A DNA stretch of 64,000 bases from Candidatus Eiseniibacteriota bacterium (GCA_043815815.1 JBDRIO010000029.1:13650-77649); one strand, 5' to 3'; positions 43,160-58,867 are shown, numbered from the stretch's first letter. Translations and numbers: made by a program. The notes: generated by a model from the sequence alone, not told the origin.

Positions 43160-43471
43160 ATGGCCGACAAGGTCCGCAGCACTCCCCGAAGCGCCTCGCC
43201 GAAGTATTGGAGGAAGCCGCTCGACGCCGACAAGATCAAGGTGCCGCACGGCGAACTCCACATACTGGTCGAACGCTGCAAGGGGTGCCAGTTCTGTGTC
43301 GAGTACTGCCCGAGGGACGTCCTCGACATGTCAGAGGACTTCAACCACAAGGGTTATCATTACCCCATCGCCGGGAACGAGAACGGCTGCGTGAACTGCC
43401 GGCTGTGCGAAATGCTCTGCCCGGAGTTCGCCATCTTTTGCCTCGAGGTGGAGGAGGAGGGTAGCGGATGA
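43160..43471 (+). CDS. korD: 2-oxoacid:ferredoxin oxidoreductase delta subunit (2x[4Fe-4S] ferredoxin)
   Basis: CKGCQFCVEYCP and CVNCRLCEMLCP motifs. Stop overlaps the alpha-subunit start (ATGA). Confidence 0.8.
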   Translation: MADKVRSTPRSASPKYWRKPLDADKIKVPHGELHILVERCKGCQFCVEYCPRDVLDMSEDFNHKGYHYPIAGNENGCVNCRLCEMLCPEFAIFCLEVEEEGSG

Positions 43472-44628
43472 GGACGGCTGATCCCAGGGGGGTCTTGACG
43501 GGCGAGCACTACCTCGACGGCGACCACGCGGCGGCGGAAGGCGCGCTCGCCGCCGGCTGTCGCTTCTTCGCAGGCTACCCCATCACACCTTCCACTGAAG
43601 TCGCAGAGAGGATCGCGGCCAGGTTCCCCCGAGTAGGGGGACTTTTCGTGCAGATGGAGGACGAGCTGGCTTCGATGGCGGCGATCCTGGGCGGCGCCTG
43701 GGCCGGCGCCAAGTCGATGACGGTGACGTCGGGTCCGGGGTTCTCGCTCATGATGGAGAACCTGGGGCTGGGGATCATGATGGAGGTCCCGACGGTGATC
43801 GTTAACGTGCAGCGCGGCGGTCCGTCGACCGGTCTTCCGACGCTTCCAGGGCAGGCGGACATGATGCAAGCGCGGTGGGGTTCGCACGGCGACTACGAGA
43901 TCATCGCCGTCTCTCCAAGTTCGCCGCAGGAGGCGTTCGACCACACGATCATGGCGTTCAACTTCGCCGAGAAGTACCGCGTTCCCACGCTCGTAATGAT
44001 GGACGAGTGCGTGGGACACATGACCGAGAAGGTCGTCATCCCCGAGGCGGAGGACATCGAGATCGTCCCCCGCAAGTGGTACGAGGGGAAGAAGGGCGAT
44101 TACCTGCCGTACAAGGCCGACGACGACATGATCCCCTGGATGGTGAAGGCCGGGGACGGGCACAGGTTCCACACGACCGGACTCACGCACGACGAGAGGG
44201 GTTATCCGGTCATGACCGCCGAGTGCCAGGAGGAGTGCGTCGGTCGACTCGTCAACAAGATCCGATCGAGGGTCGACGAGATCGTCGTCCTCGAGGAAGA
44301 GGGGATCGACGGCGCCGACGTGGTCGTCGTGTCGTACGGCATCACGGCCCGGGTCTCGATACCCGCGGTCGAGAAGGCCAGGGCGGACGGCGTCAAGGTG
44401 GGGAGCCTCCGGCTCGTGACGGTGTGGCCGTTCCCGGAGAACCGCATCCGCGAGCTCGCCGGGAAGGTGAAGTCCTTCGTGATCCCGGAGATCAACTACG
44501 GCCAGATCTACTACGAGCTCGAGCGCTGCGCCGGCGGGAAGGCAAGGACCATCCTCGTACCGCACGGCGGCGGGTGGGTGCACGACGAGAAAGACATCTA
44601 CGACGCCATCAAGGAGGGGGCGAAATGA
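43468..44628 (+). CDS. korA: 2-oxoacid:ferredoxin oxidoreductase alpha subunit
   Basis: POR/KOR alpha N-terminal domain: GAxxAGCRFFAGYPITPSTEV, MEDELASMAAILGGAWAG, GPGFSLMMENLG. Confidence 0.9.
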   Translation: MRTADPRGVLTGEHYLDGDHAAAEGALAAGCRFFAGYPITPSTEVAERIAARFPRVGGLFVQMEDELASMAAILGGAWAGAKSMTVTSGPGFSLMMENLGLGIMMEVPTVIVNVQRGGPSTGLPTLPGQADMMQARWGSHGDYEIIAVSPSSPQEAFDHTIMAFNFAEKYRVPTLVMMDECVGHMTEKVVIPEAEDIEIVPRKWYEGKKGDYLPYKADDDMIPWMVKAGDGHRFHTTGLTHDERGYPVMTAECQEECVGRLVNKIRSRVDEIVVLEEEGIDGADVVVVSYGITARVSIPAVEKARADGVKVGSLRLVTVWPFPENRIRELAGKVKSFVIPEINYGQIYYELERCAGGKARTILVPHGGGWVHDEKDIYDAIKEGAK

Positions 44629-45503
44629 AAACCAGGACCCCTGTCGCTCCCGGCCCGCCGCACCCGATGGAAGAACTGCTGCGGATGGACCGCATCCCGC
44701 ACATCTGGTGTCCGACCTGCGGGCTGGGCACGGTCGTCACGGCGTTCGCGGCGGCCTTGGAGAAGCTCGAGATGTCGCTCGATGACGTCGTCGTCGTGTC
44801 CGGCATCGGTTGCACCGGCCGCGTCGCGGGGTACGTCAAGATCGATTCATTCCACACGACCCACGGTCGCGCGATACCCTTCGCGACAGGTATTCATCTC
44901 ACCAACCCGAAGCTCAAGGTCGTCGTCATAAGCGGCGACGGGGACCTCATCTCCATCGGAGGGAACCACTTCATTCACGCGGCGCGCAGGAACGTCGACA
45001 TCACCGTCATATGCGTCAACAACTTCATCTACGCGATGACGGGAGGGCAGGTTGCGCCCACGACGCCGCTGACGGCGAACGCCTCCACGATGCCGTACGG
45101 GAACTTCGAGCGTCCCTTCAACATCCCGTATCTCGCTGAGTCATCGGGCGCGGTCTACGTGGCACGGTGGTCGGCCCTTCACGTGCGGCGACTCACGGCC
45201 GCGATGGCCGAGGCCGTGCAGAAGCCCGGCTTCTCTGTCGTCGAGGTGATCAGTCCCTGCTCCACGCTGTACTCCCGGCGCAACAGACTTGGGACAGGCC
45301 TGGACCTCATGAGGTTCTATCACGACAATTGCGTCATCAAGCACGGCGCCGACACGCGCGGCCTGGACATCGGCTTCCAGGAGGAGATCACCGTCGGCAA
45401 GTTCGTTGATATCGAGCGTCCGACGTACGTGGACGCGATGAACACGTGGTACGGAGAGGTCTTCGGGGACGACTACGAACTCTACGAGGGGTCGGCCAAG
45501 TGA
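44625..45503 (+). CDS. korB: 2-oxoacid:ferredoxin oxidoreductase beta subunit (TPP-binding)
   Basis: WCPTCGLGT, SGIGCTGR, GDGDLISIGGNHFIHAARRNVDITVICVNNFIYAMTGGQ TPP-binding fold. Confidence 0.9.
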   Translation: MKTRTPVAPGPPHPMEELLRMDRIPHIWCPTCGLGTVVTAFAAALEKLEMSLDDVVVVSGIGCTGRVAGYVKIDSFHTTHGRAIPFATGIHLTNPKLKVVVISGDGDLISIGGNHFIHAARRNVDITVICVNNFIYAMTGGQVAPTTPLTANASTMPYGNFERPFNIPYLAESSGAVYVARWSALHVRRLTAAMAEAVQKPGFSVVEVISPCSTLYSRRNRLGTGLDLMRFYHDNCVIKHGADTRGLDIGFQEEITVGKFVDIERPTYVDAMNTWYGEVFGDDYELYEGSAK

Positions 45504-46498
45504 ACGAGATAAGGATCTCCGGATTCGGCGGACAGGGCGTGATCAGATGCGGCTACATCGTGGGCAAGACGGCCGCCATCTTCGACAACAAGCACGCTAC
45601 GTTGACGCAGAGCTTCGGCCCCGAGGCCAGAGGCAGCGCGTGCAGCGCGCAGATCATCGTGGACGACGTTCCGATCCGATACCCGTACCTCACGAAGCCG
45701 GACACGGTGGTCGCGATGTCGCAGGAGGCGTTCGACAAGTTCGGTTCCGACATCACCCCGGGCGGAACGCTGATGATCGACGACGACCTCGTCAAGCCCG
45801 AGAGTCCTCCGAAGGGCTGCAAGGTCTACGCGATCCCGGCAACGAGGATAGCCGAGGGTCTGGGCAACAGGATCGCGGCGAACATCGTGATGCTCGGCTT
45901 CTTCACCGCCGTCACCGACATCATCTCCGTGGAGGCCGCGCGGGACGCCCTCCCGAGTTCGGTGCCTTCCCGCTTCATCGAGCTCAACGAGAAGGCCTTC
46001 GAGGAAGGCTACAGGTTCGGCTCCGAGCTTCTGGGCAAGGAACCCGTGCCGCCGCCGGCCGAGCGCTCCTCGAAGGGCGGCGAGTACAGGGCGTCCAAGG
46101 TCACGACGGCCAAGGCCGGCCGTCGGGCCACGACGCTCGCGCGGGTGAACGTGATGGACGGGGACGCGAGGAAGGGCGCCGCCGGGAAGAGCGCCGCGAA
46201 GTCGGCCGCAAAGGAAGCTGCAGGGGCGGCAATCCCTTCGACCGCGAAGAGGGTCGGGAAGAGGGCGTCCTCGGCGAAGCCCGCGAAGAGGGCCGGGAAG
46301 ACCGCGGCGAAGAAGAAGGCCGGAAAGAGGGCGTCCGCGGCAAAGAAGAAGGCCGGAAAGAGGGCGTCCGCGGCAAAGCCCGGGAAGAAGGCGCCCGCGA
46401 AGAAGGCCGGGAAGACCGCGGCCAGGAAGAAGGCCAAGTCCCCGGCGCGCAAACCTGCCAGGAAGACCGGCAAGAAGAAGTCCCCCGCTAGGAAGTGA
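45500..46498 (+). CDS. korC: 2-oxoacid:ferredoxin oxidoreductase gamma subunit with ~140-aa Lys/Ala-rich histone-H1-like C-terminal tail
   Basis: GTG start overlapping korB stop. Gamma-subunit core [24 protein letters not shown]...[11 protein letters not shown]. Tail ...[12 protein letters not shown]...[62 protein letters not shown]. Confidence 0.8.
46309..46374 (+). repeat. Perfect 33-bp tandem duplication inside the korC tail-coding region
   Basis: gaagaaggccggaaagagggcgtccgcggcaaa x2, encoding [11 protein letters not shown] twice. Confidence 0.8.
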
Positions 46499-46519
46499 GC
46501 GCACGTGTCAGGGGGTACG

Positions 46520-49500
46520 GATGGACAGGGGCGTTCTCGTCATCGGAGGCGGCATAGCAGGCATTCAGGCCGCCCTCGATCTGGCGGACGCGCAGTTCAA
46601 GGTCTATCTCGTCGAACGCGAACCGTCGATCGGCGGGAAGATGGCCCAGCTCGACAAGACGTTCCCGAGCATGGACTGCGCCATCTGAATACTCGGTCCC
46701 AAGATGATGGATGTCGGTCGGCATCCGAACATCGAGCTCTGGACCAACAGCGAGGTTGTTAAGGTCAAGGGCAAGGCCGGGGATTTCAAGGTCAGCGTGC
46801 TCCGCAGAGCGCGGTGCGTCGACGTCGACGAGTGCACCGCGTGCGGGGAGTGCGCCAAGTCGTGCCCCATTGCCGTGCCCAACGAGTTCGACCTGGGATT
46901 GGGCACCCGCAAGGCCATCTACCAGCCGTTCCCTCAGGCGGTGCCGTCCGCCTACATCCGCGACATCGAAACCTGTCTTGGGCACTTCCCGCTGGCCTGC
47001 GGAAGGTGCGCCAAGGCCTGCGAGAAGGGGTGCATCGACTACGACGAGCAGGACGTCGTGGAGGACGTAGCCGTGGGGTCGATCGTCGTGACCACGGGCT
47101 TCGATTTCTACGACCCGGGCGAGGCGAGCGAGTACGGCTACAAGCGCTTCCACAACGTCGTGTCGAGCCTCGAACTCGAGAGGCTCCTCTCCGCGAGCGG
47201 ACCCACGAGGGGCTTCCTCACGCGCTTCACGGATGGCGAGTCCCCCAAGAGGATCGCCTTCATCCAGTGCGTCGGCTCCAGGTGCGTGAAGCGTGACATC
47301 CTCTACTGCAGCCGCATCTGCTGCATGAACGCCGTCAAGGACGCCCTCCTGATCGAGGAGCTCTTCCCGGGCGCAGAGCTGCTCATCTTCAACATCGACG
47401 TGCGCGCCTTCGGGAAGGGCTTCGAGGCCTTCTACCGCCGGTCGCAGGGCAACGCTCAGCTCCGCTATGTGAAGGGCAAGCCCTCCAAGGTGTCCGAGGA
47501 CCCGGACACCGGCCATCTCTTGCTTCACTACGAAGACTCGGTGACCGGCACGATCGAGCACTCCGAGGTCGACATGGTCGTGCTCTCGTCCGCGCTCGTG
47601 CCCTCCGAGGGGACCGCCGGGCTCGCCGAGGTGCTGGGAGTGGGCGTCGCTTCCGACGGGTACATAGAGAGTCGCGACGCCTCGGCCTACCCCCTCGACA
47701 CGACGCGCCCGGGCGTGTACGTGGCAGGTTGTGCGGCCGGGCCCAAGGACATCACCGATTCCGTGGCGGAGGCTTCGGGCGCCGCCGCGCTTGCCGCGTC
47801 GCACGTGCTCAAACACAAGCTCGAAGACACGAAAGTGGAGGTCGAGCAGAGAGACGTCAGCGGTCCTCCGCGCGTTGGGGTCTTCGTCTGTCACTGCGGC
47901 ATCAACATCGGGGGAGTGGTCGACGTCTCCAAGCTGTCCGAGTACGCCGGCACGCTGCCCGACGTGGTCTTCGCCGAGCATCTCCTCTTCGCCTGCGCGG
48001 AGAGCACGCAGAGACAGATACAGGAGCGTGTCGCCGAGCACGACCTGAACAGGGTCGTCGTCGCCGCGTGCACGCCGAGGACGCACGAGCCCGTTTTCAG
48101 GCAGGCGGTGGCCGCGGTCGGCCTGAACCCGTATCTCGTTGAGATGGTCAACATCCGCGACCAGTGCTCGTGGGTCCACGCCAAGGAGCCGGTGGCGGCC
48201 ACCGAGAAGTCGCGCGACCTCGTTCGCATGGCCGTGGCCCGTTCGCGACTCCTCACGCCCCTGTCCGAGAAGGAGCTGGACGTCGGTCACGAGGTGCTCG
48301 TCGTCGGAGGCGGCATCGCGGGCATCGAGACCGCCATAGACCTCTCTCGGAGAGGGTTCTCCGTGCACCTCATCGAGCGCGAGGACGCGCTCGGCGGGCG
48401 GGTGGCAGGCCTGGCGGGAACGTATCCGAGCGGGCGGAGCGGCAGGTCGCTGGTCGACGAGAAGGTCGAGGCTCTGACCGCGACCAAGGTCGACGTCAGG
48501 ACGGGCACCGTCCTCAAGAGCGTCACCGGCTTTGTCGGGAACTTCGAGGCGACGCTGGCGCCGGCGGGCGGCGGCCCGACCGAAACACTGTCCGTCGGCG
48601 CCATCGTCCTCGCCATCGGCGCCGACCTCTACGAGCCCGGACCCGACGACTTCGGCGCCGGTGTCGTGCCGGGCGTCATCCCCAACACCGAGGTCGAAGG
48701 TCTCCTCGAGGGGAAGGGCGCTCCCAAGCTCGGAGGCAAGAAGGTCGAGACGGCCGTCTTCATCCAGTGCGTCGGGTCGCGAGGGGAGAAGGGGAATCCG
48801 GAGTGCTCCCGCTACTGCTGCCAGTCCGCCATCCGTCAGGCGATCGAGCTTCGGAAGCGCGGCGTCGACGTCGTCGTTCTGCACCGTGACGTCCGCGTCT
48901 ACGGCCGCGGGGCCGAGGAGATGTACCGGCGCGCCCGGGGGATGGGCGTGACGTTCCTGGGCTACGACCCGGCCGAGCCGCCCGTCGTCGACCGCGACGG
49001 CGACTCGCTGCGCGTGAGCCTCGCCGTGCCGTCGCGCAACATGACGATCGAGATACCCGCCGACGTCGTGGCCCTCTCGCTGGGCATGGTGCCCAGGAAG
49101 CACGACACGACGGCGATGCAGGAGATGCTCAAGGTCCCGATCGGGAGCGACGGCTTTCTCCTCGAGCGGCACCCCAAGTTCGGCCCCGTCGAGACGAACA
49201 CCGAGGGCGTCTTCCTGTGTGGATGCAGCCAGGCGCCCAAGGACATCGGTGACTCGATATCCCAGGCGTCGGCGGTCGCCTCGAAGATCGGCGCGCTCCT
49301 CGCTCGCGACACGATCACGCTGGAACCGATCGTCTCGGTCGTGAGCGACAGGCTCTGCCGCGCATGCTCGGAGTGCGTGATCGTCTGTGAGTTCAACGCG
49401 ATAGAGATAGGCGAGCTTCCGGACGGGCGGCGCGTGGCGATCGTGAACGAGGCGCTCTGCAAGGGGTGCGGGACGTGCGCCGTGGCATGTCCTAGCGGGG

Positions 49501-49622
49501 CCATCTCGATACGGCACTTCACCGACGAGATGATCGAGACGATGATGGAGGCCTACCTGAGGCCGACCGCTGAGCACGGGTCCGAAGCGTGGCCGGAGAC
49601 GGACGTTGGCGAAACGGGCTGA
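46520..49622 (+). CDS. hdrA: HdrA-like flavoprotein, selenocysteine-containing (in-frame TGA near 46685-46687), double-HdrA fusion with C-terminal 2x[4Fe-4S] ferredoxin
   Basis: N-terminus [22 protein letters not shown]...[10 protein letters not shown]-[TGA][13 protein letters not shown] matches the HdrA DCSMC(I/L)LSPK site, where the second Cys is Sec in known selenoprotein HdrAs. Then a Cys-rich FAD domain, an inserted Fe-S domain ([14 protein letters not shown]...[10 protein letters not shown]), a second FAD domain ([17 protein letters not shown]), then [12 protein letters not shown] / [12 protein letters not shown]. The ORF track only shows the portion after the TGA (46704..49622). Confidence 0.75.
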
Positions 49623-50187: not shown

Positions 50188-50189
50188 CC

Positions 50190-51338: not shown

Positions 51339-51392
51339 CGGAGCGTGTCTCGTGCTGTGAGTCGTACCTCGCGTAGTGAACGGAGGAGCGTG

Positions 51393-53831
51393 ATGGCAAC
51401 GAGGGATGACGGTGACGGGAAGCTCCGGGTAGGCGTGTTCGTCTGCCAGTGCGGTCTGAACATCGCCGGAACCGTGGACTGCGCGGCTGTCGCCGAGTTC
51501 GCTGAAGGCTTGGACGACGTCGCCATCGTGTACAACAACAAGTACACGTGTTCCGAGCCCGGACAACTCGAGCTTCAGAAGGCCATCGAAGAGCACGACC
51601 TGAACCGAGTGGTCGTCGCGTCGTGCTCGCCGCGCATGCACGAGCCCACGTTCAGGGCGGCACTCGAGGGGGCGGGGCTGAATCCCTACCTACTGGAGAT
51701 GGCCAACCTCCGCGAGCACTGCAGCTGGGTGCACATGGGGGAGCCCGACGCAGCAACGGAGAAGGCCAAGGATCTCGTGAAGATGGCCGTCGCCAGAGCC
51801 CGCGCGCTCGCGGCTCAGACGGAGATGGTCGTCCCCATCACGCAGACGGCCCTGGTCGTCGGAGGAGGCGTAGCAGGAATCCAGGCTTCGCTCGACCTCG
51901 CCGACGCCGGTTATCAGGTCTACCTGGTCGAGAAGGAACCCTCCATCGGTGGGATCATGGCTCAGATCGACAAGACCTTTCCCACCATGGACTGCTCCAT
52001 ATGAATTCTCGGCCCCAAGATGGCGGATGTCGGTCGGCATCCGAAGATCGAGCTCCTGGCCTACAGCGAAGTTGAGGACGTCAAAGGGTACGTGGGCAAC
52101 TTCACGGTCACGGTCCGCAAGAAGGCGCGGTACGTGGACGCGAGCGAGTGCACGGCGTGCGGTGACTGTAAGGACGTCTGTCCGGTGACCGCCCCGGACG
52201 AGTTCGAGATAGGCCTGGCCACGAGGAAGGCGATCTACCAGCCGTTCCCGCAGGCCGTTCCGTCGGCGTACGTTCTGAACATCGACGAGTGCCTCGGAAA
52301 CAACCCCATCGCGTGCGGGAAGTGCCTCGAGGTCTGCGACAAGAAGTGCATCGACTACGACGATGAGGACGAGCTGGTTCAGATCGAAGTGGGAACGGTC
52401 ATCGTCTGCGTCGGCATGGACGTCTACGACCCGACGATCATGGACGAGTTCGGGTACACGAGGTTCGAGAACGTCATCACGTCGATGGAGTTCGAGCGCC
52501 TCATCAACTCCGGAGGTCCGACCGAAGGCCACCTGGTCAAGCTCACCGACGGAGAGCAGCCTGGTACGGTGGCGTTCATCCAGTGCGTGGGCTCGAGGGA
52601 CGCGACCCGCGGCAACCCGTACTGCAGCAACTTCTGCTGCATGAACACGGTGAAGGATTGCCTCCTCATCAAGGACCACTACCCCGGCGTCGACATCAAG
52701 GTCTTCTACATCGACATCCGCGCCTTCGGCAAGGGGTTCGAGGACCTCTTCCAGAGGAGCAAGGAGGCGGGGACCCAGTACATCCGCGGCATCCCCGGCG
52801 AGATCGAGGAGGACCCCGAGACGAAGGGTTTGAGGCTTTTCGTCGAGAACACGACCGACGGCGGGGTCGAGCGCCACGACGTCGACATGGTCGTGCTCTC
52901 GGTCGGCGCCATTCCCAGGAAAGACAGCGACGTCATCCAGCGGCTCCTGACGCTCCAGCGGAGCCAGGACGGGTTCTTCCTCGAGGCGCACCCGAAGCTC
53001 AAGCCGGTCGACGCGGCCACGCAAGGCGTCTTCTTCGCCGGCTGTGCCGAGAGCCCGAAGGACATCAAGGACTCCGTGACGCAGGCGAGCGCGGCCGTCG
53101 CGCGCGCCAACCGCCTCATGATGCAGGGGAAGGTGAAGGTCGAGGCCATCACGTCGACCGTGATCCCGGAGCTCTGCAAGTCGTGCGGCATATGCGTCAA
53201 GGTCTGTCCGTATCACGCGATCTCGTGTGACACGAAGGCCAAAGCGGCCGCGGTCGTCGTCGAGGCCGCGTGCGCAGGCTGCGGAGCCTGCAGCGCGGAG
53301 TGTCCGTTCGGCGCCATAACGATGAAGCACTTCACCGACGACCAGATCGAGGCGCAGATCGACGCGATGCTCGACACCGATCCACAGGACAAGGTGCTAG
53401 CGTTCGCGTGCAACTGGTGCTCGTACTCGGGCGGGGACCTCGCGGGGACGAACAGGCTCCAGTACCCGGCGAACGTCCGGCTCATCAGGACGATGTGCTC
53501 CGGGCGCGTCGACAAGAAGTTCGTGCAGAGGGCGTTCGCCAGAGGCGCACCGGTCGTGCTCGTGTCCGGTTGCCACTTCGCGGACTGCCACTACATCAAC
53601 GCCGTGCACTGGACGCAGCGGAGGGTCGAGAAGCTCTGGGACGAGCTGGAGAAGAAGGGCGTCCGTCCCGAGCGGCTGCAGCTCGAGTGGATCTCGGCGG
53701 CCGAGGGTCAGAAGTTCGCGACCGTCATGCGCGCCATGGAGGAACTGCGGCAGACGGTCACGCCCGCTGAGATCGAGAAATCCAGGAAGGCATATGCCAG
53801 TGCCCTCGAGCCCACCGAGGTCACCGCCTAG
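51393..53831 (+). CDS. hdrA: HdrA-like flavoprotein, selenocysteine-containing (in-frame TGA 52002-52004), fused C-terminally to an MvhD domain
   Basis: GGAGGAG RBS; N-terminal Fe-S domain [14 protein letters not shown]...[10 protein letters not shown]; FAD domain ...[10 protein letters not shown]-[TGA][13 protein letters not shown]...; ferredoxin [12 protein letters not shown] / [12 protein letters not shown]; C-terminal Mvh[18 protein letters not shown]...GCHFADCHY. The ORF track splits it into 51345..52004 and 52020..53831, consistent with one TGA-interrupted frame. Confidence 0.8.
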
Positions 53832-53844
53832 AGGAGCGCCGCCC

Positions 53845-53979
53845 ATGGCCGACCAGGCCAGGTTCGTCTGTCTGCGCTGCGGAGCCGAGTTCCTCCTGCC
53901 CTACACGCCCGGAGTGACGGAGGAGCGCACGTGCCCCTCCTGTTCCAGCAACAGCGTCAGGCGCAAGAAGGACAGCTAG
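53845..53979 (+). CDS. FmdB-family zinc-ribbon small protein (44 aa)
   Basis: AGAGGAG RBS. MADQARFVCLRCGAEFLLPYTPGVTEERTCPSCSS (CxxC...CxxC). Confidence 0.45.
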   Translation: MADQARFVCLRCGAEFLLPYTPGVTEERTCPSCSSNSVRRKKDS

Positions 53980-54116: not shown

Positions 54117-57100
54117 ATGCGCAAGCCCTTCGTCATTCTCGAAGACGAGGCCAGGACGCTCGCGAACTACCACGTTCGCTACGTCGACGCTGCCCGCCGG
54201 CACCACGAATCCCTCGTGGAGAAGCTCGAAGCCAAGGGTCTGTACGACAGGGCCCACCTCTGGCAGCTCGCGGCCGAGCCGGCGACGGAGTTCCGCATCG
54301 TCGAGCAGGCGGCCGACTCGTTCGAGGAGAAGCTCGCCTTCCTCGGCTGCTACTACTGCCTGCAGCTTCTCCGAATGAACCTCGACGCCGTCGACTCGCT
54401 GCGGCTGAGCCTCATCTCGCCGGTCGACAGGACCGGCACCGAGCGCGACTTCATGCTCGGAATGGGCGCCGGGTTCCGGGCGCTGTCCGGCGCCTACATG
54501 GAGAGACTACTCTCTCTCTTCATCGCCGACCGCGAGACGCCGGCGTACGTCCTGATCGGCGTCGGCACGCGCGCCGACCAGGACGACATCGACGTCGGCG
54601 TGATCGACGACGGCGGCGAGGGCGGGGAGGCGCTCGATACGGCCATAGCGCGCATGAGCGTTCAGATGCTCAAGTACGCCACGAGCCTCCACTTCCACCT
54701 CTCGGAACACGTGGGCGAGCGCAGCTACAGCGCGACCATCCCCGAGTACAGGAGCACGCTCGACAAAGGGGTAAGGGACTTCGTCATCGTCAATGAGCTG
54801 GTCGGAAGCGCGCCCATCCTGGGTGACACGAGGCTCTTCGCGGAGTTTCAGAACGAGGTCGTGTCCCGCTACTACCACCGGCCCGGCGAGGACCCGAAGT
54901 GGCACGTCGGATACCTGCGCGGACTGCTCGGCGAGATCCAGTCTCTCATCGGACGCCCCCTCGGCCGTGACCACATCAATCCCAAGGACGACGGTCTCCG
55001 CATGACGAAGGGGCTCCTCGCGGTCCTCCGGACGATCCACGGGGTCGAGGAGGTCAACGCCTGGAGGATCATCGACTCGCTTCGCAGGGTCTCGCCGGAG
55101 GACGCCGGGCTCTACGACGACCTCGAGCGGTCGCTGAGCTTCCTCGAGGTCTTCCGCTCCGTCTATCAGCTCCTGGTGGCCCAGGACGAGGAGATCTACC
55201 TCGACGACGCGGTGATGCAGGCGAACCTGGCCCGCGTCGGGGAGGTCATGGGCTACAGGACGGTGGGTCTCATCGGTCCCGAGACGCACCTTCTCGTCGA
55301 GTACTACGAGCACGTGGGGCACGTGCGGAGGATCGTGAGCGAACTGACCGAGCGCTGCACGCAGCACTTGAGGGAGACGACCGTCTTCGCCGACATGGTT
55401 CTCCCCGAGTATCGTGGCAACACGGCGGTCGACTTCGCGGAGCGCAGCGCGTTCTTCCGCGGAACGACGTTCTGGCAGGACCTCCTCGAGCTCCTGGAGC
55501 AGGACGACTGCAGGCTCCTCTGCAGATACCTTGATGACCTGAACGAGCTCCCGCCGGGGGCGCGCGCGAAGGTCGTCGACGCCCTGAGCGCGTGCGCCGA
55601 GTACGCTCCCGGCACCGTGATGACGCTCATCGTCATCCTGGCCCGCAACCCGCACTGCGAGGGAGCGCTCGAGCTCTTCGAGGAGCTGGAAGCGGCATTC
55701 AGGTCGAGGCTGACGAGCGTGCCGTACGCCGCGCTCCCCGCCATCGAGCTCTTCTACCGGCGTCCGAGGCTCGTCAACCGCTATCTCATGAGCATCGGTA
55801 CGGCGGCCACGCTCGAGTTCGCCGACCTGCTCCGCCGGGAGCTGTGGGACCCCGACGTCGCGTTCTGGTGCGGCAAACTCGTTCTGCTCGCTGACCTGCA
55901 CGGGCGCGCGAGCAGGTACTTCAGGCAGTACCTGGATCGTGCGGGGGAGAAATATCCGTCGTGCCTGACGCTCCTGGATGACACGGCGTCGCTGCGGGAC
56001 ATGTCGCGCGGCGTCCTGGCGGGCGTCGAGCGCAAGCCGTCCTCACGAGAGAAGATGGAGAGGCTCGGCGACTTCTACGACCTGGAGTTTCTGCGGATAG
56101 GCTTGAAGACGCTGAACGGAGTTCCGGCGGCGCGCACAGACGGCGAGTTCACCGCCGCCGCCGACACCTACATTCAGGATCTCTTCGACCTGTGCAAGCG
56201 CGAGGTCGACGAGGCGGTCCACTTCCGCGTGGCCACGCACGACCTCCTCGCCGTCTACGCCACGGGAGGGCTTGGACGAGAGCAGGCGTACGACGACGAC
56301 TTCGACCTGCTCGTGCTCGTCAACACGAACCACGAGGACGTGCGCGCCTACGCGGACGCGATCGTGGCCAAGATGAACGCGGAGATCATCAAGCGCGGGA
56401 CTCTGCCCCACTACAGGCTCGCCGACCACATCGGGCACTACGTGGCCACCCTGGACGAGTTGCAGAGCGTGCTCTCGACCGAGCGGTCGGACACCTTCGT
56501 CGACCAGTCGCAGGTTCTAGAGGCGCGCATGATCGTGGGGACGAGCCGGTTCGAGAACGAGTTCCGCAGGAAGATCGTGGGGCGCCATGTCTTCGACGAG
56601 CGGTGTCGGTACGTGAGCAGGATGCGTGAGGAGATCGAGTCGCGTCACCGCGATGCTCGGGCCATGGGGCGCGAGCTCTCCAGCGTCAAGGACGGCGTGG
56701 GGAGTCTGCGCGACATCATCATGCTTCTGCTCATGTACAAGGCGGCCTACAGGCTGCATCGTCCGGTGAACGCGCAGCTTCTCACGGACCTGGCGAGGCT
56801 CGAGCCGACTCATCAGCGCGAGTTCCGCTTCCTGAGCGGGGCGCTCGAGTTCTTCAAGAACCTGCGCAACGCCTATCGCATGTCCGTCGGGGCGGAGGAC
56901 AAGCTCAGGCGCGAGTACTTCCACGTCGTGGCGCAGTCGATGGGGCTCTCGCTGGGTGACGACGAGGAGGCCCGGGAACTCCTGATGCGCGCGTATCGCG
57001 GATGCACGGTCCAGGTTGGCGAGGTCGTCGCGGCGCTGGCCCTCGAGCTCGAGCGGAGCTGCCTGGAACTCTCGGTTGAATCTGCGGACGCGTCGCCTCG

Positions 57101-57410
57101 TCCGTTGAGCGCCATGCCGCCCGGGGTCGGCCCCACGTGGCGGGGAGTGCCGAGGCGCGACGTTCCGTGGTACCCCACGATCGACGAAGGCGCATGCGAG
57201 GGCTGCGGAGCGTGTGAGGACCTCTGTTCATTCGGCGTGCTCGAACGGACGCGCGACGCCTCGACGGTTCGCGTTCGCCGCCGCTACGCGTGCGTCGTCG
57301 GATGCGTTCTCTGTTCCTCGGTCTGCCGGAGCAACGCGATCTCGTTCCCGGGGCTGTCTGTGCTGGAAGGGCTTTCGCAGAGCGGCGGGGCGGACGGCGG
57401 CGGTTCGTAG
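54117..57410 (+). CDS. GlnE-like protein with two nucleotidyltransferase (Pol-beta superfamily) modules and a fused C-terminal 2x[4Fe-4S] ferredoxin domain
   Basis: NTase motifs YVLIGVGTRADQDDIDVGVI and AVYATGGLGREQAYDDDFDLLVLV (compare GlnE GKLGGRELNYSSDLDLVFL). Each is followed by a GlnE-type helical domain. C-terminus CEGCGACEDLC...CVVGCVLCSSVC. 1097 aa. Confidence 0.65.
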   Translation: MRKPFVILEDEARTLANYHVRYVDAARRHHESLVEKLEAKGLYDRAHLWQLAAEPATEFRIVEQAADSFEEKLAFLGCYYCLQLLRMNLDAVDSLRLSLISPVDRTGTERDFMLGMGAGFRALSGAYMERLLSLFIADRETPAYVLIGVGTRADQDDIDVGVIDDGGEGGEALDTAIARMSVQMLKYATSLHFHLSEHVGERSYSATIPEYRSTLDKGVRDFVIVNELVGSAPILGDTRLFAEFQNEVVSRYYHRPGEDPKWHVGYLRGLLGEIQSLIGRPLGRDHINPKDDGLRMTKGLLAVLRTIHGVEEVNAWRIIDSLRRVSPEDAGLYDDLERSLSFLEVFRSVYQLLVAQDEEIYLDDAVMQANLARVGEVMGYRTVGLIGPETHLLVEYYEHVGHVRRIVSELTERCTQHLRETTVFADMVLPEYRGNTAVDFAERSAFFRGTTFWQDLLELLEQDDCRLLCRYLDDLNELPPGARAKVVDALSACAEYAPGTVMTLIVILARNPHCEGALELFEELEAAFRSRLTSVPYAALPAIELFYRRPRLVNRYLMSIGTAATLEFADLLRRELWDPDVAFWCGKLVLLADLHGRASRYFRQYLDRAGEKYPSCLTLLDDTASLRDMSRGVLAGVERKPSSREKMERLGDFYDLEFLRIGLKTLNGVPAARTDGEFTAAADTYIQDLFDLCKREVDEAVHFRVATHDLLAVYATGGLGREQAYDDDFDLLVLVNTNHEDVRAYADAIVAKMNAEIIKRGTLPHYRLADHIGHYVATLDELQSVLSTERSDTFVDQSQVLEARMIVGTSRFENEFRRKIVGRHVFDERCRYVSRMREEIESRHRDARAMGRELSSVKDGVGSLRDIIMLLLMYKAAYRLHRPVNAQLLTDLARLEPTHQREFRFLSGALEFFKNLRNAYRMSVGAEDKLRREYFHVVAQSMGLSLGDDEEARELLMRAYRGCTVQVGEVVAALALELERSCLELSVESADASPRPLSAMPPGVGPTWRGVPRRDVPWYPTIDEGACEGCGACEDLCSFGVLERTRDASTVRVRRRYACVVGCVLCSSVCRSNAISFPGLSVLEGLSQSGGADGGGS

Positions 57411-57476
57411 GCGCCTGGCGCGTCGGACCGGCGGCGAGTCACGAAGCGGGAGCGCCGAGGCGGGCCGGGGGCTGTC

Positions 57477-58358
57477 TCAGGACGCGGGAGCACCGAGGCG
57501 GGCGACGATGTCGTCCGCCTTCACCTTGTGCAGGTCGAGTCCCAGCTCCTCACGGGAGAACCCCTGCGCGAGACCGAGCAGTTGGAAGTAGTAGATGATG
57601 GGGATCTCGAACTTCGTCCCCTTCTTCCGCCCGACCGTTATCTGGCCCAGGTCGAACGACGAGAAGCACGTCGGACAGATGAGCCCCATGCAGTCGGCGC
57701 CCGAGTCGGCTATCGACGTGAAGATGCTGTAGACCATCTCGACAGGCATGTCGTCGTCGAGGCATCCCTTCCCGCAACACAGGAGTTCCTCGGGGTGCGA
57801 CACGGGCGTCGCGCCGACGGCCGTCACCAGCTCCTCGAGGATGGACGGGTAGTCCGCGTCATCGACGTGCATGATCTGGGACGGCTTCAGGAGATGGCAT
57901 CCGTAGTGGATGGCCACCTTCACACCATCGAGAGGACGAGTGACCGACTCCCTGACGGCGTCCATCCCGAGTTCGTCGCGGATGAGAACGACCGCGTGTT
58001 CGACCTTCGCGGTCCCCTTGTACGTCTTGCCGACCTTCGCCAGCCTCTTGTTGATCTTCTTGCGGAGGCTCTCGTCCTCGGCGAGCAGGAAGCGCGCCTC
58101 CTTGAGCGTGGCCGTGCATCCGCTGCACAGCGTCACCAGATCGACCCCCGCTTCCTCCGCAAGAGCGAGGTTCCTCGCGGCGATCGTGAGCCATCCCAGC
58201 GCGTCCTTCGCCTTGAAGTAGATGGGGTCGGGACAACACGTGAAGCCGTCGATGTCGACGAGCTCGAACCCGAGCCTGGGCATCGTGAGACGGAAGGCCG
58301 CCTCCATCTGGGGGTACTTGATCGGGATCATGCAGCCGAGGAAAGGCGCGAGCTTCAC
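57477..58358 (-). CDS. hdrB: Heterodisulfide reductase subunit B (two CCG domains)
   Basis: GTG start with GGAGG RBS (VKLAPFLGCMIPIKYP). CCG motifs FTCCPDP...CSGC and LLCCGKGC...CPTC. The ORF track's longer 58928 start overlaps hdrC. Confidence 0.85.
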   Translation of the reverse strand: MKLAPFLGCMIPIKYPQMEAAFRLTMPRLGFELVDIDGFTCCPDPIYFKAKDALGWLTIAARNLALAEEAGVDLVTLCSGCTATLKEARFLLAEDESLRKKINKRLAKVGKTYKGTAKVEHAVVLIRDELGMDAVRESVTRPLDGVKVAIHYGCHLLKPSQIMHVDDADYPSILEELVTAVGATPVSHPEELLCCGKGCLDDDMPVEMVYSIFTSIADSGADCMGLICPTCFSSFDLGQITVGRKKGTKFEIPIIYYFQLLGLAQGFSREELGLDLHKVKADDIVARLGAPAS

Positions 58359-58867
58359 TTGTCGGTCGCCTCCAGGAGTTTTCTCATCTCGTCGACCGGG
58401 ACGTCCTTGAGGGGCTTGAGTCCCAGCCTCTCGCGCGTCTTGTGAACGACGGGCGTCACGACTCCGGCGACGCCCGTCTTCAGGATGTTCTTCGTGAGCA
58501 CGTTGACCGCGTCCGGCGCCACGCCCTTGCGGTCGGCGAGGTTCTTGAGCGCCACGATTACCTCGATAGGGCGAACGTCCTGGGGGCATCGCTCGTAGCA
58601 GCTGTAGCAGTTCGTGCACAGCCAGATGGGCGAATCGGGGGAGAGGAGCGCGTCGCCCCGGCCCAGCAGTACGTCGAGCAGGATGAGTCTGGGGTTGAAA
58701 CGCTCGGAGTAGCGGGCCGCCGGGCACTGCGCGACGCAGGCGCCGCACTGGTAGCAGTAGTTGTGGTGGTCCCCGCCCAGCACCCCGTCGAGTTCGCGTC
58801 GGAGGTCGAAGCTGAGTTCCACGTGGAGGCTCTTGTCGGCCCGGCTCTTGTCGTCTTTGTCCGGCAC
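58355..58867 (-). CDS. hdrC: Heterodisulfide reductase subunit C (2x[4Fe-4S])
   Basis: CYQCGACVAQCP and CTNCYSCYERCP. 4-nt overlap with the hdrB start. Confidence 0.85.
   Translation of the reverse strand: MPDKDDKSRADKSLHVELSFDLRRELDGVLGGDHHNYCYQCGACVAQCPAARYSERFNPRLILLDVLLGRGDALLSPDSPIWLCTNCYSCYERCPQDVRPIEVIVALKNLADRKGVAPDAVNVLTKNILKTGVAGVVTPVVHKTRERLGLKPLKDVPVDEMRKLLEATDK

What the first reader, a model, noticed from the sequence alone, without database searches (positions are those of the whole stretch)
43160..58867. Compact Kor-Hdr-Mvh redox island: korDABC, hdrA(Sec)-mvhD-hdrD-like, hdrA(Sec)::mvhD, Zn-ribbon, GlnE-Fd, hdrCB
A four-subunit 2-oxoacid:ferredoxin oxidoreductase is followed immediately (22-nt gap) by two HdrA paralogs, a standalone MvhD and an HdrC/HdrB fusion. 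hdrC-hdrB lie convergent a few kb downstream. No hydrogenase or formate dehydrogenase catalytic subunit is present in the window. The arrangement suggests a flavin-based electron bifurcation/confurcation complex that couples reduced ferredoxin from 2-oxoacid oxidation to a heterodisulfide-type (CCG-domain) reduction and a third partner.
Basis: partly seen in the sequence, partly recalled or inferred. Interest (0 to 1): 0.55.

Follow-up and report, generated by a model that had tools for sequence, protein, structure and literature searches.

The report
Conserved Kor–Hdr redox gene cluster
A candidate-phylum bacterium (Eisenbacteria) carries a real gene cluster, conserved across several phyla, that joins a 2-oxoacid:ferredoxin oxidoreductase to selenium-containing heterodisulfide-reductase-type electron-splitting proteins and to a GlnE-like protein-modifying enzyme; this is a new variant of a coupling already proposed for CO2-fixing symbionts.

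Summary
Coordinates 43160-58867 hold korDABC, a 22-nt gap, a 1033-aa Sec-HdrA, MvhD, an HdrC/HdrB-fusion (HdrD-like), a Sec-HdrA::MvhD fusion, a Zn-ribbon and a GlnE-fold nucleotidyltransferase with a C-terminal 2x[4Fe-4S] domain. hdrC-hdrB lie convergent. No hydrogenase, FDH or NADH module is found among the ~45 larger ORFs of the window that I scanned.

New points:
- The first HdrA is a fused, asymmetric HdrA pseudo-dimer (2 FAD sites, 7 cluster motifs). Its Sec56 aligns with Cys197 of M. wolfeii HdrA. This is the BamE-type design of class II benzoyl-CoA reductase.
- Both TGAs are followed by the same GGUC-loop hairpin. In homologues the position holds only TGA or Cys codons.
- The cluster is conserved with rearrangements in Eisenbacteria, Zixibacteria, Gemmatimonadota, Acidobacteriota and WOR-3. 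kor-hdrA1 adjacency defines one HdrA subfamily.
- The GlnE-like gene is the tightest partner of kor: a KorC-like gene lies directly upstream in 49 of 64 loci.

Best reading: an HdrA-type flavin-based bifurcation module wired to Kor, probably with Kor as its low-potential partner, plus a dedicated covalent-modification regulator. Direction, thiol substrate and mid-potential donor are unknown. Kor-Hdr coupling was proposed before (Endoriftia, Thioflavicoccus), so this is a new variant of a known kind.

The parts
43006..43035 (+). sigma-70-like promoter match (TTGACG-18-TACAAT) about 125 nt upstream of korD
   Evidence: It is the only match in 42000-59800, where 1.0 is expected by chance, so only its position is suggestive.
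43160..43471 (+). korD, delta subunit, 2x[4Fe-4S] ferredoxin-like
   Evidence: Fer4_7 6e-11. Start codon as. Its stop overlaps the korA start.
43468..44628 (+). korA, alpha subunit of a 2-oxoacid:ferredoxin oxidoreductase
   Evidence: POR_N 3.8e-70, PFOR_II. (NF006412 at 552 bits, cut-off 411). (best solved relatives 1YD7 and 8YS5, the latter a 2-oxoglutarate synthase alpha subunit).
44625..45503 (+). korB, beta (TPP) subunit
   Evidence: TPP_enzyme_C 4.9e-33..
45500..46498 (+). korC, gamma subunit, with a ~150-aa Lys/Ala/Pro-rich C-terminal tail (about 46040-46495)
   Evidence: POR 6.7e-33, residues 10-171. for the tail.
46521..49622 (+). hdrA1: fused HdrA pseudo-dimer (1033 aa). Layout: TrxR1 with Sec56 and the inserted Fd domain, then the N-domain, then TrxR2, then the C-terminal Fd domain. 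2 FAD motifs and 7 [4Fe-4S] motifs.
   Evidence: mapping onto 5ODC_A: residues 5-379 = 146-515; 449-614 = 3-168; 848-1017 = 487-654. (invariant Cys and K273)..
46686..46688 (+). in-frame TGA, read as Sec56; aligns with Cys197 of M. wolfeii HdrA
46708..46727 (+). SECIS-like hairpin (8-bp stem, GGUC loop)
49606..50187 (+). mvhD, stand-alone [2Fe-2S] adaptor (FlpD domain)
   Evidence: FlpD 1.3e-49..
50190..51338 (+). HdrD-like protein: HdrC-type 2x[4Fe-4S] fused to an HdrB-type double CCG domain
   Evidence: CCG 2.5e-30 in two stretches; Fer4_8. (HdrC and HdrB chains; 9OJN_A). (TfrB is the best NCBIfam hit, below its cut-off).
51393..53831 (+). hdrA2::mvhD fusion (812 aa) in canonical HdrA domain order plus MvhD; Sec204
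   Evidence: NF040770 at 1194.5 bits, cut-off 1100, profile positions 1-777..
52002..52004 (+). in-frame TGA, read as Sec204
52024..52043 (+). SECIS-like hairpin; stem and GGUC loop identical to those of hdrA1
53845..53979 (+). small Zn-ribbon protein (CxxC...CPxC); co-conserved with kor and hdr in other phyla
   Evidence: Zn_ribbon_8, weak and below its cut-off. (tblastn hits beside kor or hdrA2 in many loci).
54117..57410 (+). GlnE-fold protein with two nucleotidyltransferase domains (1097 aa) and a C-terminal 2x[4Fe-4S] domain (about residues 1018-1080)
   Evidence: GlnD_UR_UTase 1.7e-13; Fer4. (invariant GG..REQ..DDD.D). (model pLDDT 82; best folds GlnE 1V4A and 3K7D, and DrrA 6YX5).
57477..58358 (-). 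hdrB (two CCG domains)
   Evidence: CCG 6.8e-23. (TIGR03288 at 301.6 bits, cut-off 345).
58355..58867 (-). hdrC (2x[4Fe-4S])
   Evidence: (TIGR03290 at 104 bits, cut-off 160).

Best explanation
The island encodes a conserved 'Kor-Hdr' system. A four-subunit 2-oxoacid (probably 2-oxoglutarate):ferredoxin oxidoreductase is functionally, and probably physically, wired to an HdrA-type flavin-based electron-bifurcation core.

The core has the composition of the BamDEF module of class II benzoyl-CoA reductase:
- a fused HdrA pseudo-dimer (HdrA1);
- an MvhD adaptor;
- an HdrD-like CCG protein.
A second unit, HdrA2::MvhD with HdrBC, accompanies it in many lineages.

Proposed wiring:
1. Electron pairs enter through the C-terminal Fd domain and MvhD and reach the FAD of TrxR1.
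2. The high-potential electron leaves via the adjacent [4Fe-4S] cluster to the non-cubane clusters of HdrD-like (or HdrB). It ends on a thiol/disulfide or another high-potential acceptor.
3. The low-potential electron leaves via the Cys53/Sec56 pair, the N-domain cluster and the inserted Fd domain. It reaches KorD, or free ferredoxin used by Kor, and drives reductive carboxylation of acyl-CoA (2-oxoacid synthase direction).
4. The GlnE-fold two-domain nucleotidyltransferase, here fused to an Fe-S domain, is a dedicated covalent-modification regulator of Kor that responds to nitrogen/2-oxoglutarate status or to redox state.

Shown: gene content, cofactor motifs, Sec recoding, domain permutation, and cross-phylum co-conservation.
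Inferred: the physical complex, the direction of electron flow, the identity of the 2-oxoacid, the thiol and the mid-potential donor, and the target of the nucleotidyltransferase.
For: Conservation of the cluster:
- The same gene set is found with inversions and reorderings in Eisenbacteria (L001/L009, L007, L012), Zixibacteria (L029, L040, L042, L043, L056, L062, L064), Gemmatimonadota (L054), Acidobacteriota (L028) and WOR-3 (L084).
- In the scan anchored on HdrA1, korDABC lies directly upstream of the fused HdrA in 11 of the 13 best loci. It is found in none of the 67 more distant ones.
- A further locus has only korDABC-hdrA1-mvhD-hdrD, with hdrD truncated.

Operon signals:
- The gap is 22 nt with an SD-like GGGGG. 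There is no terminator-like site. One promoter-like site lies upstream of korD.

HdrA1 architecture:
- TrxR1 has Sec56 (= Cys197), K273 (= Lys409) and the inserted Fd domain. The second half has the N-domain and the C-terminal Fd domain but lacks Cys197.
- This complementarity is the signature of fused HdrA heterodimers (PMC9012536).
- The cofactor count matches BamE, whose cryo-EM structure shows the bifurcating FAD in TrxR1. In that structure the inserted Fd domain feeds the low-potential catalytic module and BamD takes the high-potential electron (bioRxiv 10.64898/2026.04.10.717634).

Precedents:
- Interspersed korABCD and flxABCD-hdrABC genes in Endoriftia, Escarpia symbionts and Thioflavicoccus were proposed to shuttle electrons directly to OGOR. 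They are co-expressed (PMC6315080; PMC11636981).

GlnE-like link:
- A KorC-like gene lies directly upstream in 49 of 64 loci.
- Kor lies within 10 kb in 23 of 26 fully flanked loci.
- In Eisenbacteria L005 and L008 the same kor orthologue (74-88% identity) abuts the GlnE-like gene with no hdr genes in between.
- The fold matches the protein AMPylators GlnE and DrrA.
Against: - No mid-potential input module (hydrogenase, FDH, Flx, NuoEF or GltD-like) lies in the window or beside the kor-linked clusters. The bifurcation scheme is therefore incomplete.
- Ferredoxin at about -500 mV can already drive or accept Kor electrons. The need for bifurcation depends on physiology that is not known.
- The organism looks like a polymer-degrading heterotroph, where Kor could be catabolic.
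- The HdrB, HdrC and HdrD-like proteins score below the NCBIfam equivalog cut-offs. Their substrate is unknown, and in BCRII the BamD acceptor is an ETF, not a disulfide.
- TrxR2 keeps a basic residue at the Lys409 position (R772), so which FAD bifurcates is not settled.
- There is no evidence that Kor is nucleotidylylated. The literature search found nothing on this.
- The GlnE-anchored sample is biased towards kor.
Confidence: 0.5

Rival explanations
1. Kor is the electron input. 2-oxoacid oxidation feeds electrons through KorD, or through ferredoxin, into the HdrA C-terminal Fd/MvhD entry. The electrons then reduce a heterodisulfide at HdrD/HdrB. A further acceptor is reduced as well, or the electrons are confurcated with a second donor. 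The system would be a sink for ferredoxin in fermenters that lack Rnf or hydrogenase.
For: - It is self-contained. Kor is the only non-Hdr redox enzyme conserved beside the module.
- MvhD normally bridges an input enzyme to HdrA (PMC9012536).
- In paralogues not linked to kor, a GltD/NfnB-like NAD(P)H module is fused to the HdrA. An input module can therefore sit where kor sits here.
- The window suggests a heterotroph.
- Zixibacteria RBG-1 was noted to lack Rnf and H2-evolving hydrogenases for re-oxidising ferredoxin (PMC3903129).
Against: - With a donor near -500 mV and a disulfide acceptor, bifurcation would give an electron far below any obvious need. Plain Fd:disulfide reduction would not need a Sec-tuned low-potential branch or an inserted Fd domain, yet both are invariant.
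- The solved analogues place the adjacent, upstream-encoded catalytic module on the low-potential output side.
- The association with a GlnE-like regulator fits anabolic 2-oxoglutarate supply at least as well.
Confidence: 0.25
2. There is no bifurcation and no complex. The Hdr-like proteins are ferredoxin- or thiol-linked disulfide reductases used for thiol homeostasis or cofactor repair. They are co-regulated with Kor only because both depend on the ferredoxin pool. The GlnE-like enzyme is an ordinary nitrogen-regulation enzyme, modifying glutamine synthetase or PII. It sits near Kor because Kor makes or uses 2-oxoglutarate.
For: - The HdrB, HdrC and HdrD-like scores are below the equivalog cut-offs.
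- The hdr block is a removable cassette. L005 and L008 have kor next to the GlnE-like gene without hdr.
- M. acetivorans HdrA2B2C2 also shows a plain ferredoxin-dependent heterodisulfide reductase activity (PMC5296606, title).
- The GlnE fold by itself does not identify a target.
Against: - kor-hdrA1 adjacency persists through inversions and across phyla, and it defines one HdrA subfamily.
- The bifurcation hallmarks (K273, the Cys/Sec pair, the full set of clusters) are invariant.
- In the clustering of ORFs from the 80 GlnE-anchored loci, the recurrent families examined were Kor, Hdr, MvhD and Zn-ribbon, lineage-specific housekeeping genes, and one unannotated ~250-aa family. No glutamine synthetase or PII family was among them, though neither was searched for by sequence.
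Confidence: 0.15
3. The adjacency is inherited synteny or an assembly coincidence and has no functional meaning.
For: All the data come from MAGs and metagenome contigs, and some taxon labels are doubtful. Examples are the 'Patescibacteria', 'Cytophagia' and 'Phycisphaerales' titles.
Against: - The same neighbours recur in independent assemblies from different phyla, with different gene orders and strand arrangements.
- Overlapping or tightly spaced start and stop codons link the genes.
Confidence: 0.03

Closest known systems
BamDEF module of class II benzoyl-CoA reductase (Geobacter metallireducens BamBCDEFGHI)
   Same: - A fused HdrA dimer with domain permutation, two FADs and seven [4Fe-4S] clusters.
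- A CxxC-type redox pair on the low-potential branch.
- An MvhD-type adaptor.
- An HdrC/HdrB-fusion (HdrD-like) subunit that takes the high-potential electron.
- A catalytic module encoded immediately upstream (bamBC there, korDABC here).
   Basis: the description in bioRxiv 10.64898/2026.04.10.717634, compared.
   Different: - No tungsten AOR (BamBC) and no HydABC-like BamGHI in the window.
- MvhD here is short (FlpD domain only) and uses Cys. BamF is more than 100 aa longer and carries Sec.
- Sec here sits in the HdrA CxxU pair.
- Gene order is E-F-D rather than D-E-F.
- BamE could not be compared by sequence, because it is not in the PDB copy searched.
korABCD interspersed with flxABCD-hdrABC in the rTCA clusters of Endoriftia and Escarpia symbionts and Thioflavicoccus mobilis
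   Same: A four-subunit Kor is genetically embedded in an Hdr-type putative bifurcating system. The proposal there is direct electron delivery to OGOR (PMC6315080; PMC11636981).
   Different: - Here there is no FlxABCD NADH module, no tfrAB, no aclAB and no other TCA gene nearby.
- HdrA is a Sec-containing fused pseudo-dimer, accompanied by an HdrA::MvhD fusion.
- A GlnE-like gene is present.
- The hosts are FCB-group and Acidobacteriota MAGs that appear heterotrophic.
HdrA2B2C2 of Methanosarcina acetivorans (HdrA::MvhD fusion subclass)
   Same: hdrA2 scores above the NCBIfam HdrA2 cut-off over the full profile. HdrB and HdrC are encoded in the cluster. Bacterial homologues of this subclass were noted before (PMC5296606).
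   Different: - Sec replaces Cys at the Cys197 position.
- HdrB and HdrC score below their equivalog cut-offs.
- CoM-S-S-CoB and F420 are not expected in this bacterium. This rests on general knowledge and was not tested here.
Fused or tandem HdrA heterodimers of ANME archaea and the Moorella thermoacetica HdrABC-MvhD-MetFV complex
   Same: One half lacks Cys197 and the other lacks the N-domain, all within a single polypeptide (PMC9012536).
   Different: - The order is reversed here: the Cys197/Sec half comes first and the N-domain half second.
- The partner enzyme is Kor, not MetFV or methanogenesis enzymes.
GlnE (glutamine synthetase adenylyltransferase) and other GlnE-fold AMPylators such as DrrA
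   Same: - Two nucleotidyltransferase domains in about 990 aa.
- The best fold matches are 1V4A (TM 0.73 over the target), 3K7D and 6YX5.
- The second domain has an invariant G-G-x-x-R-E-Q-x-x-D-D-D-x-D motif.
   Different: - Sequence similarity to GlnE is marginal: profile against PDB gives E = 1.3e-3.
- Only GlnD models are hit, at about 59 bits against cut-offs of 519 or more.
- The Pfam GlnE domain is not detected.
- It is genomically tied to Kor.
- It is fused to a 2x[4Fe-4S] domain here, or followed by a separate 175-aa Fd gene in relatives.

Membership tests
Four-subunit 2-oxoacid:ferredoxin oxidoreductase (KorDABC/OorDABC type) | alpha (POR_N + PFOR_II), beta (TPP-binding), gamma (POR domain) and delta (2x[4Fe-4S]) subunits encoded together | tested here: met
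   (NF006412 at 552 bits, cut-off 411).
Four-subunit 2-oxoacid:ferredoxin oxidoreductase (KorDABC/OorDABC type) | specificity for 2-oxoglutarate | tested here: inconclusive
   The OGOR-specific NCBIfam models score below their cut-offs (NF007206 375.7 against 579; NF007207 245 against 364). The best solved relatives are 1YD7 and the 2-oxoglutarate synthase 8YS5.
Bifurcating HdrA (M. wolfeii type) | TrxR-like FAD domain with the Lys409 equivalent and the adjacent Cx(12)Cx3CC [4Fe-4S] motif | tested here: met
   HdrA1 K273, C250, C263, C267 and C268 are invariant. HdrA2 aligns over the full length.
Bifurcating HdrA (M. wolfeii type) | Cys197 ligand, N-terminal cluster domain, inserted Fd domain and C-terminal Fd domain | tested here: met
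   In HdrA1 each element is present once, in permuted order, with Sec56 = Cys197. HdrA2 has the canonical order.
MvhADG-HdrABC | [NiFe]-hydrogenase subunits MvhA and MvhG | tested here: not met
   No hydrogenase domain was found among the ORFs scanned in the window.
FlxABCD-HdrABC | FlxA NAD(H)-binding flavoprotein and FlxBCD | tested here: not met
   Absent from the ORFs scanned in the window (same calls). Also absent from the recurrent gene families around related loci.
HdrA2B2C2 (HdrA::MvhD subclass) | HdrA fused to MvhD, scoring above the curated HdrA2 model | tested here: met
   NF040770 at 1194.5 bits, cut-off 1100, profile 1-777. FlpD domain at residues 668-784.
HdrA2B2C2 (HdrA::MvhD subclass) | cognate HdrB and HdrC at equivalog level; F420H2/CoM-S-S-CoB chemistry | tested here: inconclusive
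   TIGR03288 scores 301.6 against 345 and TIGR03290 scores 104 against 160. The substrates cannot be tested with these tools.
Class II benzoyl-CoA reductase (BamBCDEFGHI) | fused HdrA dimer (BamE), MvhD-like adaptor (BamF) and HdrD-like subunit (BamD) | tested here: inconclusive
   The domain composition matches the published description. MvhD here lacks BamF's extra domains and its Sec. No sequence comparison with the Bam proteins was possible.
Class II benzoyl-CoA reductase (BamBCDEFGHI) | tungsten AOR BamBC and HydABC-like BamGHI | tested here: not met
   No AOR or NuoEFG/HydABC-like domains among the ORFs scanned in the window.
GlnE (glutamine synthetase adenylyltransferase) | two GlnE-type nucleotidyltransferase domains in one chain | tested here: met
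   Model with pLDDT 81.9 and two beta-sheet NTase cores. Top fold hits are 1V4A, 3K7D and 6YX5. Invariant acidic motifs.
GlnE (glutamine synthetase adenylyltransferase) | sequence-level membership (curated GlnE or GlnD models) | tested here: not met
   Only GlnD models are hit, at about 59 bits against cut-offs of 519-1299. Pfam finds PF08335 only. Profile against PDB gives E = 1.3e-3.
GlnE (glutamine synthetase adenylyltransferase) | glutamine synthetase as the target | not testable with these tools
   Genomic partners are Kor, KorC-like, Zn-ribbon and Hdr.
Bacterial selenoprotein HdrA | in-frame UGA aligned with Cys in homologues | tested here: met
   43 TGA and 70 TGC/TGT at the motif position, and nothing else. 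Gene callers split the homologues at the same residue.
Bacterial selenoprotein HdrA | SECIS hairpin downstream of the UGA | tested here: met
   An 8-bp stem with a GGUC loop starts 22 nt after the U of each UGA. The overall z-scores are unremarkable, and the hairpin also encodes a conserved peptide.
Bacterial selenoprotein HdrA | Sec machinery (selA, selB, selD, tRNA-Sec) in the genome | not testable with these tools
   There is no tRNA in the window and no SelB-type hit among the proteins scanned. The rest of the genome was not available. selB lies beside hdrA in the related locus L087.

The most novel reading that the evidence does not exclude
The ~990-aa GlnE-fold two-domain nucleotidyltransferase family is widespread in FCB-group phyla and Acidobacteriota and is almost always encoded next to Kor or a stand-alone KorC-like protein. 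It could be a reversible AMPylation/de-AMPylation switch for a 2-oxoacid:ferredoxin oxidoreductase. In Eisenbacteria it would read the ferredoxin redox state through its own Fe-S domain. That would gate an Hdr-driven, bifurcation-powered 2-oxoglutarate synthase according to nitrogen and redox status. I did not find a report of covalent nucleotidylylation control of an OFOR, or of a BCRII-like bifurcating supercomplex built around Kor.
Probability: 0.25. Interest if true: 0.8.

Novelty: new variant of a known kind. Interest (0 to 1): 0.55.

Why it matters
2-oxoacid:ferredoxin oxidoreductases need, or produce, electrons near -500 mV. How bacteria without hydrogenases or photosystems supply or dispose of such electrons is a recurring gap in the metabolic models of uncultured phyla.

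A Kor wired to an HdrA-type bifurcation core would extend a principle already seen in methanogen Hdr-Fmd complexes and in class II benzoyl-CoA reductase. In those, the bifurcating module is plugged directly into a low-potential catalytic module. Here the principle would apply to a central carbon/nitrogen node, 2-oxoglutarate.

The cluster also gives a concrete, genetically defined set of about 12 proteins to express and test.

The GlnE-like partner points to a possible new layer of post-translational control of the ferredoxin-dependent TCA branch.

Tried and rejected
- Exact-sequence look-ups of window proteins (HdrD-like, KorA, and P0001) found no contig on record. Context therefore had to come from homologues.
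- Rfam at gathering thresholds found nothing in the window, and there is no tRNA or tRNA-Sec.
- The terminator scan gave only weak intragenic matches. None lies between korC and hdrA1, or between the GlnE-like gene and hdrB.
- My automated count of korC upstream of HdrA1 in the metagenome loci was confused by tandem HdrA copies. The figures I quote come from reading the layouts.
- Sulfur-oxidising sHdr was rejected. That HdrA is a short flavoprotein (6TJR matched only residues 185-426), and no LbpA or sulfur-transferase genes are present.
- Mvh-Hdr and Flx-Hdr membership was rejected because the defining partner subunits are absent.
- A true GlnE or GlnD orthologue was rejected on curated model scores.
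- Other recurrent neighbours of the GlnE-like gene (NDK, FolE2, PPIases, AI-2E transporter) are lineage-specific housekeeping genes, not part of the system.
- A direct sequence comparison with BamD/E/F was not possible, because those sequences could not be fetched and are not in the PDB copy.
- A literature search for GlnE-type control of ferredoxin oxidoreductases returned nothing.

Full report
**Origin and gene content**

The window has 64-70% G+C. Its 1097-aa ORF is 100% identical to a protein of a 'Candidatus Eisenbacteria bacterium' MAG.

I called genes from stop-to-stop ORFs with third-position GC bias and translated them.
- korD 43160-43471, korA 43468-44628, korB 44625-45503, korC 45500-46498;
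- hdrA1 46521-49622, mvhD 49606-50187, an HdrC/HdrB fusion (HdrD-like) 50190-51338;
- hdrA2::mvhD 51393-53831, a Zn-ribbon 53845-53979;
- a large nucleotidyltransferase with a C-terminal ferredoxin domain 54117-57410;
- on the other strand, hdrB 57477-58358 and hdrC 58355-58867.

Pfam and NCBIfam matches are strong. KorA passes the curated 2-oxoacid:acceptor oxidoreductase alpha model (552 bits against 411). HdrA2 passes the curated HdrA2 model (1194.5 against 1100). MvhD has FlpD at 1e-49. The HdrD-like protein and HdrB each carry two CCG stretches.

The three kor junctions overlap by 4 nt and hdrA1/mvhD by 17 nt. The korC-hdrA1 gap is 22 nt with an SD-like GGGGG. The remaining gaps are small, apart from 137 nt before the nucleotidyltransferase gene.

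**Boundaries**

The flanks are unrelated to the island:
- upstream: a GH53 galactanase, a beta-helix protein and a toast-rack/LiaF-like protein;
- downstream: YigZ (UPF0029), ZnuABC, Fur and rubrerythrin.

The rest of the window encodes secreted hydrolases, sulfatases and an MttB-type corrinoid methyltransferase set. No hydrogenase, formate dehydrogenase, NuoEF/HydBC-like, Flx or GltD-like domain was found among the larger ORFs scanned.

The only sigma-70-like match in 42000-59800 lies at 43006-43035, just upstream of korD. No terminator-like site lies between korC and hdrA1.

**Selenocysteine**

Both hdrA genes have one in-frame TGA (46686-46688 and 52002-52004). Each TGA is followed, 22 nt after the U, by the same 8-bp hairpin with a GGUC loop. 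From my own knowledge, this loop resembles the SelB-binding loop of the E. coli fdhF SECIS. The spacing is also within the range reported for bacterial SECIS elements.

I surveyed the motif DKT[FY]P..DC[AS]I-x-IL.PK in all fetched loci. Position x held 43 TGA and 70 Cys codons, and nothing else. Gene callers split the homologues at exactly this residue. HdrA is a known bacterial selenoprotein family (PMC1794560, listed).

**What HdrA1 is**

I aligned HdrA1 to the solved M. wolfeii HdrA, 5ODC_A:
- residues 5-379 match 146-515 (the TrxR-like FAD domain plus the inserted Fd domain);
- residues 449-614 match 3-168 (the N-terminal cluster domain and the start of a second TrxR domain);
- residues 848-1017 match 487-654 (the C-terminal Fd domain).

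Sec56 falls on Cys197. Invariant K273 falls on Lys409. The second half has its own FAD motif and a Cx11Cx3CC motif, but it has no Cys197 equivalent and no inserted Fd domain.

HdrA1 is therefore a fused, asymmetric HdrA pseudo-dimer with 2 FAD sites and 7 [4Fe-4S] motifs. Complementary loss of Cys197 and of the N-domain is the published signature of fused or tandem HdrA heterodimers in ANME archaea and Moorella (PMC9012536). The order of the halves is reversed here.

A 2026 cryo-EM preprint on class II benzoyl-CoA reductase describes BamE as just such a fused, permuted HdrA dimer:
- the bifurcating FAD is in the N-terminal TrxR1;
- a Cys-x-x-Cys pair lies on the low-potential branch;
- the inserted Fd domain feeds the catalytic BamBC module;
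- the MvhD-like BamF acts as adaptor;
- the HdrD-like BamD takes the high-potential electron, and passes it to an ETF rather than to a disulfide.

HdrA1-MvhD-HdrD has the same composition. Kor occupies the genomic position of BamBC.

**Conservation**

I looked up homologues of the nucleotidyltransferase. I then ran a scan of one genome per species with an alignment of that family and searched the 80 loci with the window proteins by tblastn.

The whole gene set recurs:
- Eisenbacteria (L009, L007, L012, L021, L015): same order as in the window.
- Zixibacteria (L029, L040, L042, L043, L056, L062, L064 and others): korDABC-hdrA1-(mvhD)-hdrD-hdrA2 on one strand, and on the other a KorC-like gene plus the nucleotidyltransferase, followed by hdrBC.
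- Gemmatimonadota (L054).
- Acidobacteriota (L028).
- WOR-3 and relatives (L084, L069, L078): hdrA1-mvhD-hdrD-hdrC-hdrB-hdrA2-zn form one operon, which ties hdrCB to the block.

I ran an independent scan anchored on HdrA1 in metagenome contigs. korDABC lay directly upstream of the fused HdrA in 11 of the 13 best-scoring loci. It lay upstream in none of the other 67, which are tandem arrays of fused HdrA with MvhD and HdrCB. kor-hdrA1 adjacency therefore marks one HdrA subfamily.

One closed genome has only korDABC-hdrA1-mvhD and a truncated hdrD.

**The nucleotidyltransferase**

This ~990-aa family is widespread in FCB-group candidate phyla and Acidobacteriota, and it is the tightest partner of Kor:
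- a KorC-like (POR gamma) gene lies directly upstream in 49 of 64 loci that have at least 1 kb of upstream sequence;
- of the 26 loci with at least 9 kb on both sides, 23 have korA or a KorC-like gene and 15 have hdrA.

In two Eisenbacteria (L005, L008) the same kor orthologue (74-88% identity) abuts this gene with no hdr genes in between. The hdr block therefore behaves as a cassette inserted between kor and its regulator-like partner.

By sequence the family is only remotely GlnE/GlnD-like:
- Pfam finds PF08335 only;
- GlnD models score about 59 bits against cut-offs of 519 or more;
- a profile search of the PDB gives GlnE 1V4A at E = 1.3e-3.

An AlphaFold2 model (pLDDT 81.9, pTM 0.73) shows two nucleotidyltransferase cores. 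The only three significant solved matches are the two halves of E. coli GlnE (1V4A, 3K7D) and the Legionella AMPylator DrrA. The second domain has an invariant GG..REQ..DDD.D motif, and the first has invariant D157 and D159.

The Fe-S domain is fused only in the closest relatives. In others a separate 175-aa ferredoxin gene follows. I found no paper linking GlnE-type enzymes to ferredoxin oxidoreductases.

**Comparison with the literature**

- Rubin-Blum et al. 2019 (PMC6315080) reported conserved interspersing of korABCD and tfrAB with flxABCD-hdrABC in the rTCA clusters of tubeworm symbionts and Thioflavicoccus. They proposed direct electron delivery to OGOR.
- Co-expression was shown later (PMC11636981).
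- The Zixibacteria RBG-1 paper noted a large cluster with Mvh/Hdr, POR and OGOR (PMC3903129).
- HdrA::MvhD fusions with bacterial homologues were described with M. acetivorans HdrA2B2C2 (PMC5296606).

The idea of 'Kor next to Hdr, so bifurcation-coupled Kor' is therefore not new. New here are:
- the architecture: a BamE-like Sec-HdrA pseudo-dimer, MvhD and HdrD-like, plus HdrA2::MvhD-HdrBC;
- the absence of any Flx, hydrogenase or NADH module;
- the breadth across FCB-group phyla;
- the GlnE-fold partner.

**Mechanism**

The best-supported reading is an HdrA-type bifurcation core plugged into Kor. By analogy with BCRII and with the methanogen Hdr-Fmd supercomplexes (abstracts listed), I favour Kor as the low-potential output, working in the 2-oxoacid synthase direction. 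Electrons would reach it through Sec56/Cys53, the N-domain cluster, the inserted Fd domain and KorD. HdrD-like or HdrB would be the high-potential outlet. Entry would be through the C-terminal Fd domain and MvhD.

The weak point is the missing mid-potential donor. Some paralogues carry a fused GltD/NfnB-like NAD(P)H module (P0137, P0221, P0224, P0240). That makes NAD(P)H a candidate, but those paralogues are not linked to kor.

It is self-contained, but it makes poor thermodynamic use of a bifurcating flavin. A non-bifurcating 'co-regulated neighbours' reading and pure coincidence are less likely, given the conserved adjacency and the invariant bifurcation hallmarks.

**Verdict**

The feature is real, well delimited and conserved. 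It is a new variant of a known kind. Interest is moderate, and would be higher if the GlnE-fold enzyme proves to modify Kor.

Noticed in passing
window 46040-46495 (C-terminus of korC): KorC carries a ~150-aa Lys/Ala/Pro-rich, histone-H1-like repeat tail ([13 protein letters not shown]...). The tail is specific to Eisenbacteria and varies in length: 192 aa beyond the end of the aligned KorC core in L009, 39-63 aa in L005, L007 and L008, and no comparable tail in Zixibacteria and the other lineages examined.
   Followed up: partly
window 21701-25828 (-): A cluster of an MttB-family methyltransferase, a corrinoid-binding protein, an S-methyltransferase and a Met_synt_B12-like activation domain. 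It looks like a quaternary-amine or methyl-corrinoid demethylation system.
   Followed up: no
window 865-2397, 5704-7953, 17270-19351, 26703-29546, 37156-38685, 38707-40554: Six hydrolases or surface proteins all end in a FlgD_ig domain: an esterase, an amylase, an M1 peptidase, an endonuclease I, a GH53 enzyme and a beta-helix protein. This is probably a lineage-specific secretion or sorting tag.
   Followed up: no
L086:546-11266; L085:1-4062; L087:2413-9116: Related metagenome loci hold three tandem Sec-containing fused HdrA genes. One of them has an inserted GltD/NfnB-like NAD(P)H module, giving about 1470 aa. In L087 selB sits between an hdrA::mvhD gene and such a fusion.
   Followed up: partly
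L090:2831-8200; L098:3742-8900: Upstream of the fused HdrA the kor operon reads korD-A-B-A-B-C. That is a duplicated alpha/beta pair within one operon.
   Followed up: no
L048:9222-9983; L069:9241-9981: In WOR-3 and Stahlbacteria-type loci, the gene directly upstream of the GlnE-like gene is a ~250-aa protein with no Pfam match, not a KorC-like gene. It is present in 20 loci. It contains a G..x..DIDLL motif that looks like a small nucleotidyltransferase.
   Followed up: partly
window 54005-54050: A G+C-rich inverted repeat (GGCCGGGAGCCGGCCGGGG...CCCGGCGGGCC) lies in the 137-nt spacer before the GlnE-like gene, with no T-run after it. It could be a processing or attenuation element.
   Followed up: no
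window 59014-63870: Immediately downstream of hdrC lie YigZ/UPF0029, ZnuB, ZnuC and ZnuA, a Fur-family regulator and rubrerythrin. YigZ and Znu are also syntenic in L001.
   Followed up: no
L168:13400-13976: In the closed genome CP070707 the hdrD-like gene after korDABC-hdrA1-mvhD stops at residue ~192, so the CCG half is missing. An oppositely oriented aminotransferase gene follows. This is either a truncation or an assembly problem.
   Followed up: partly
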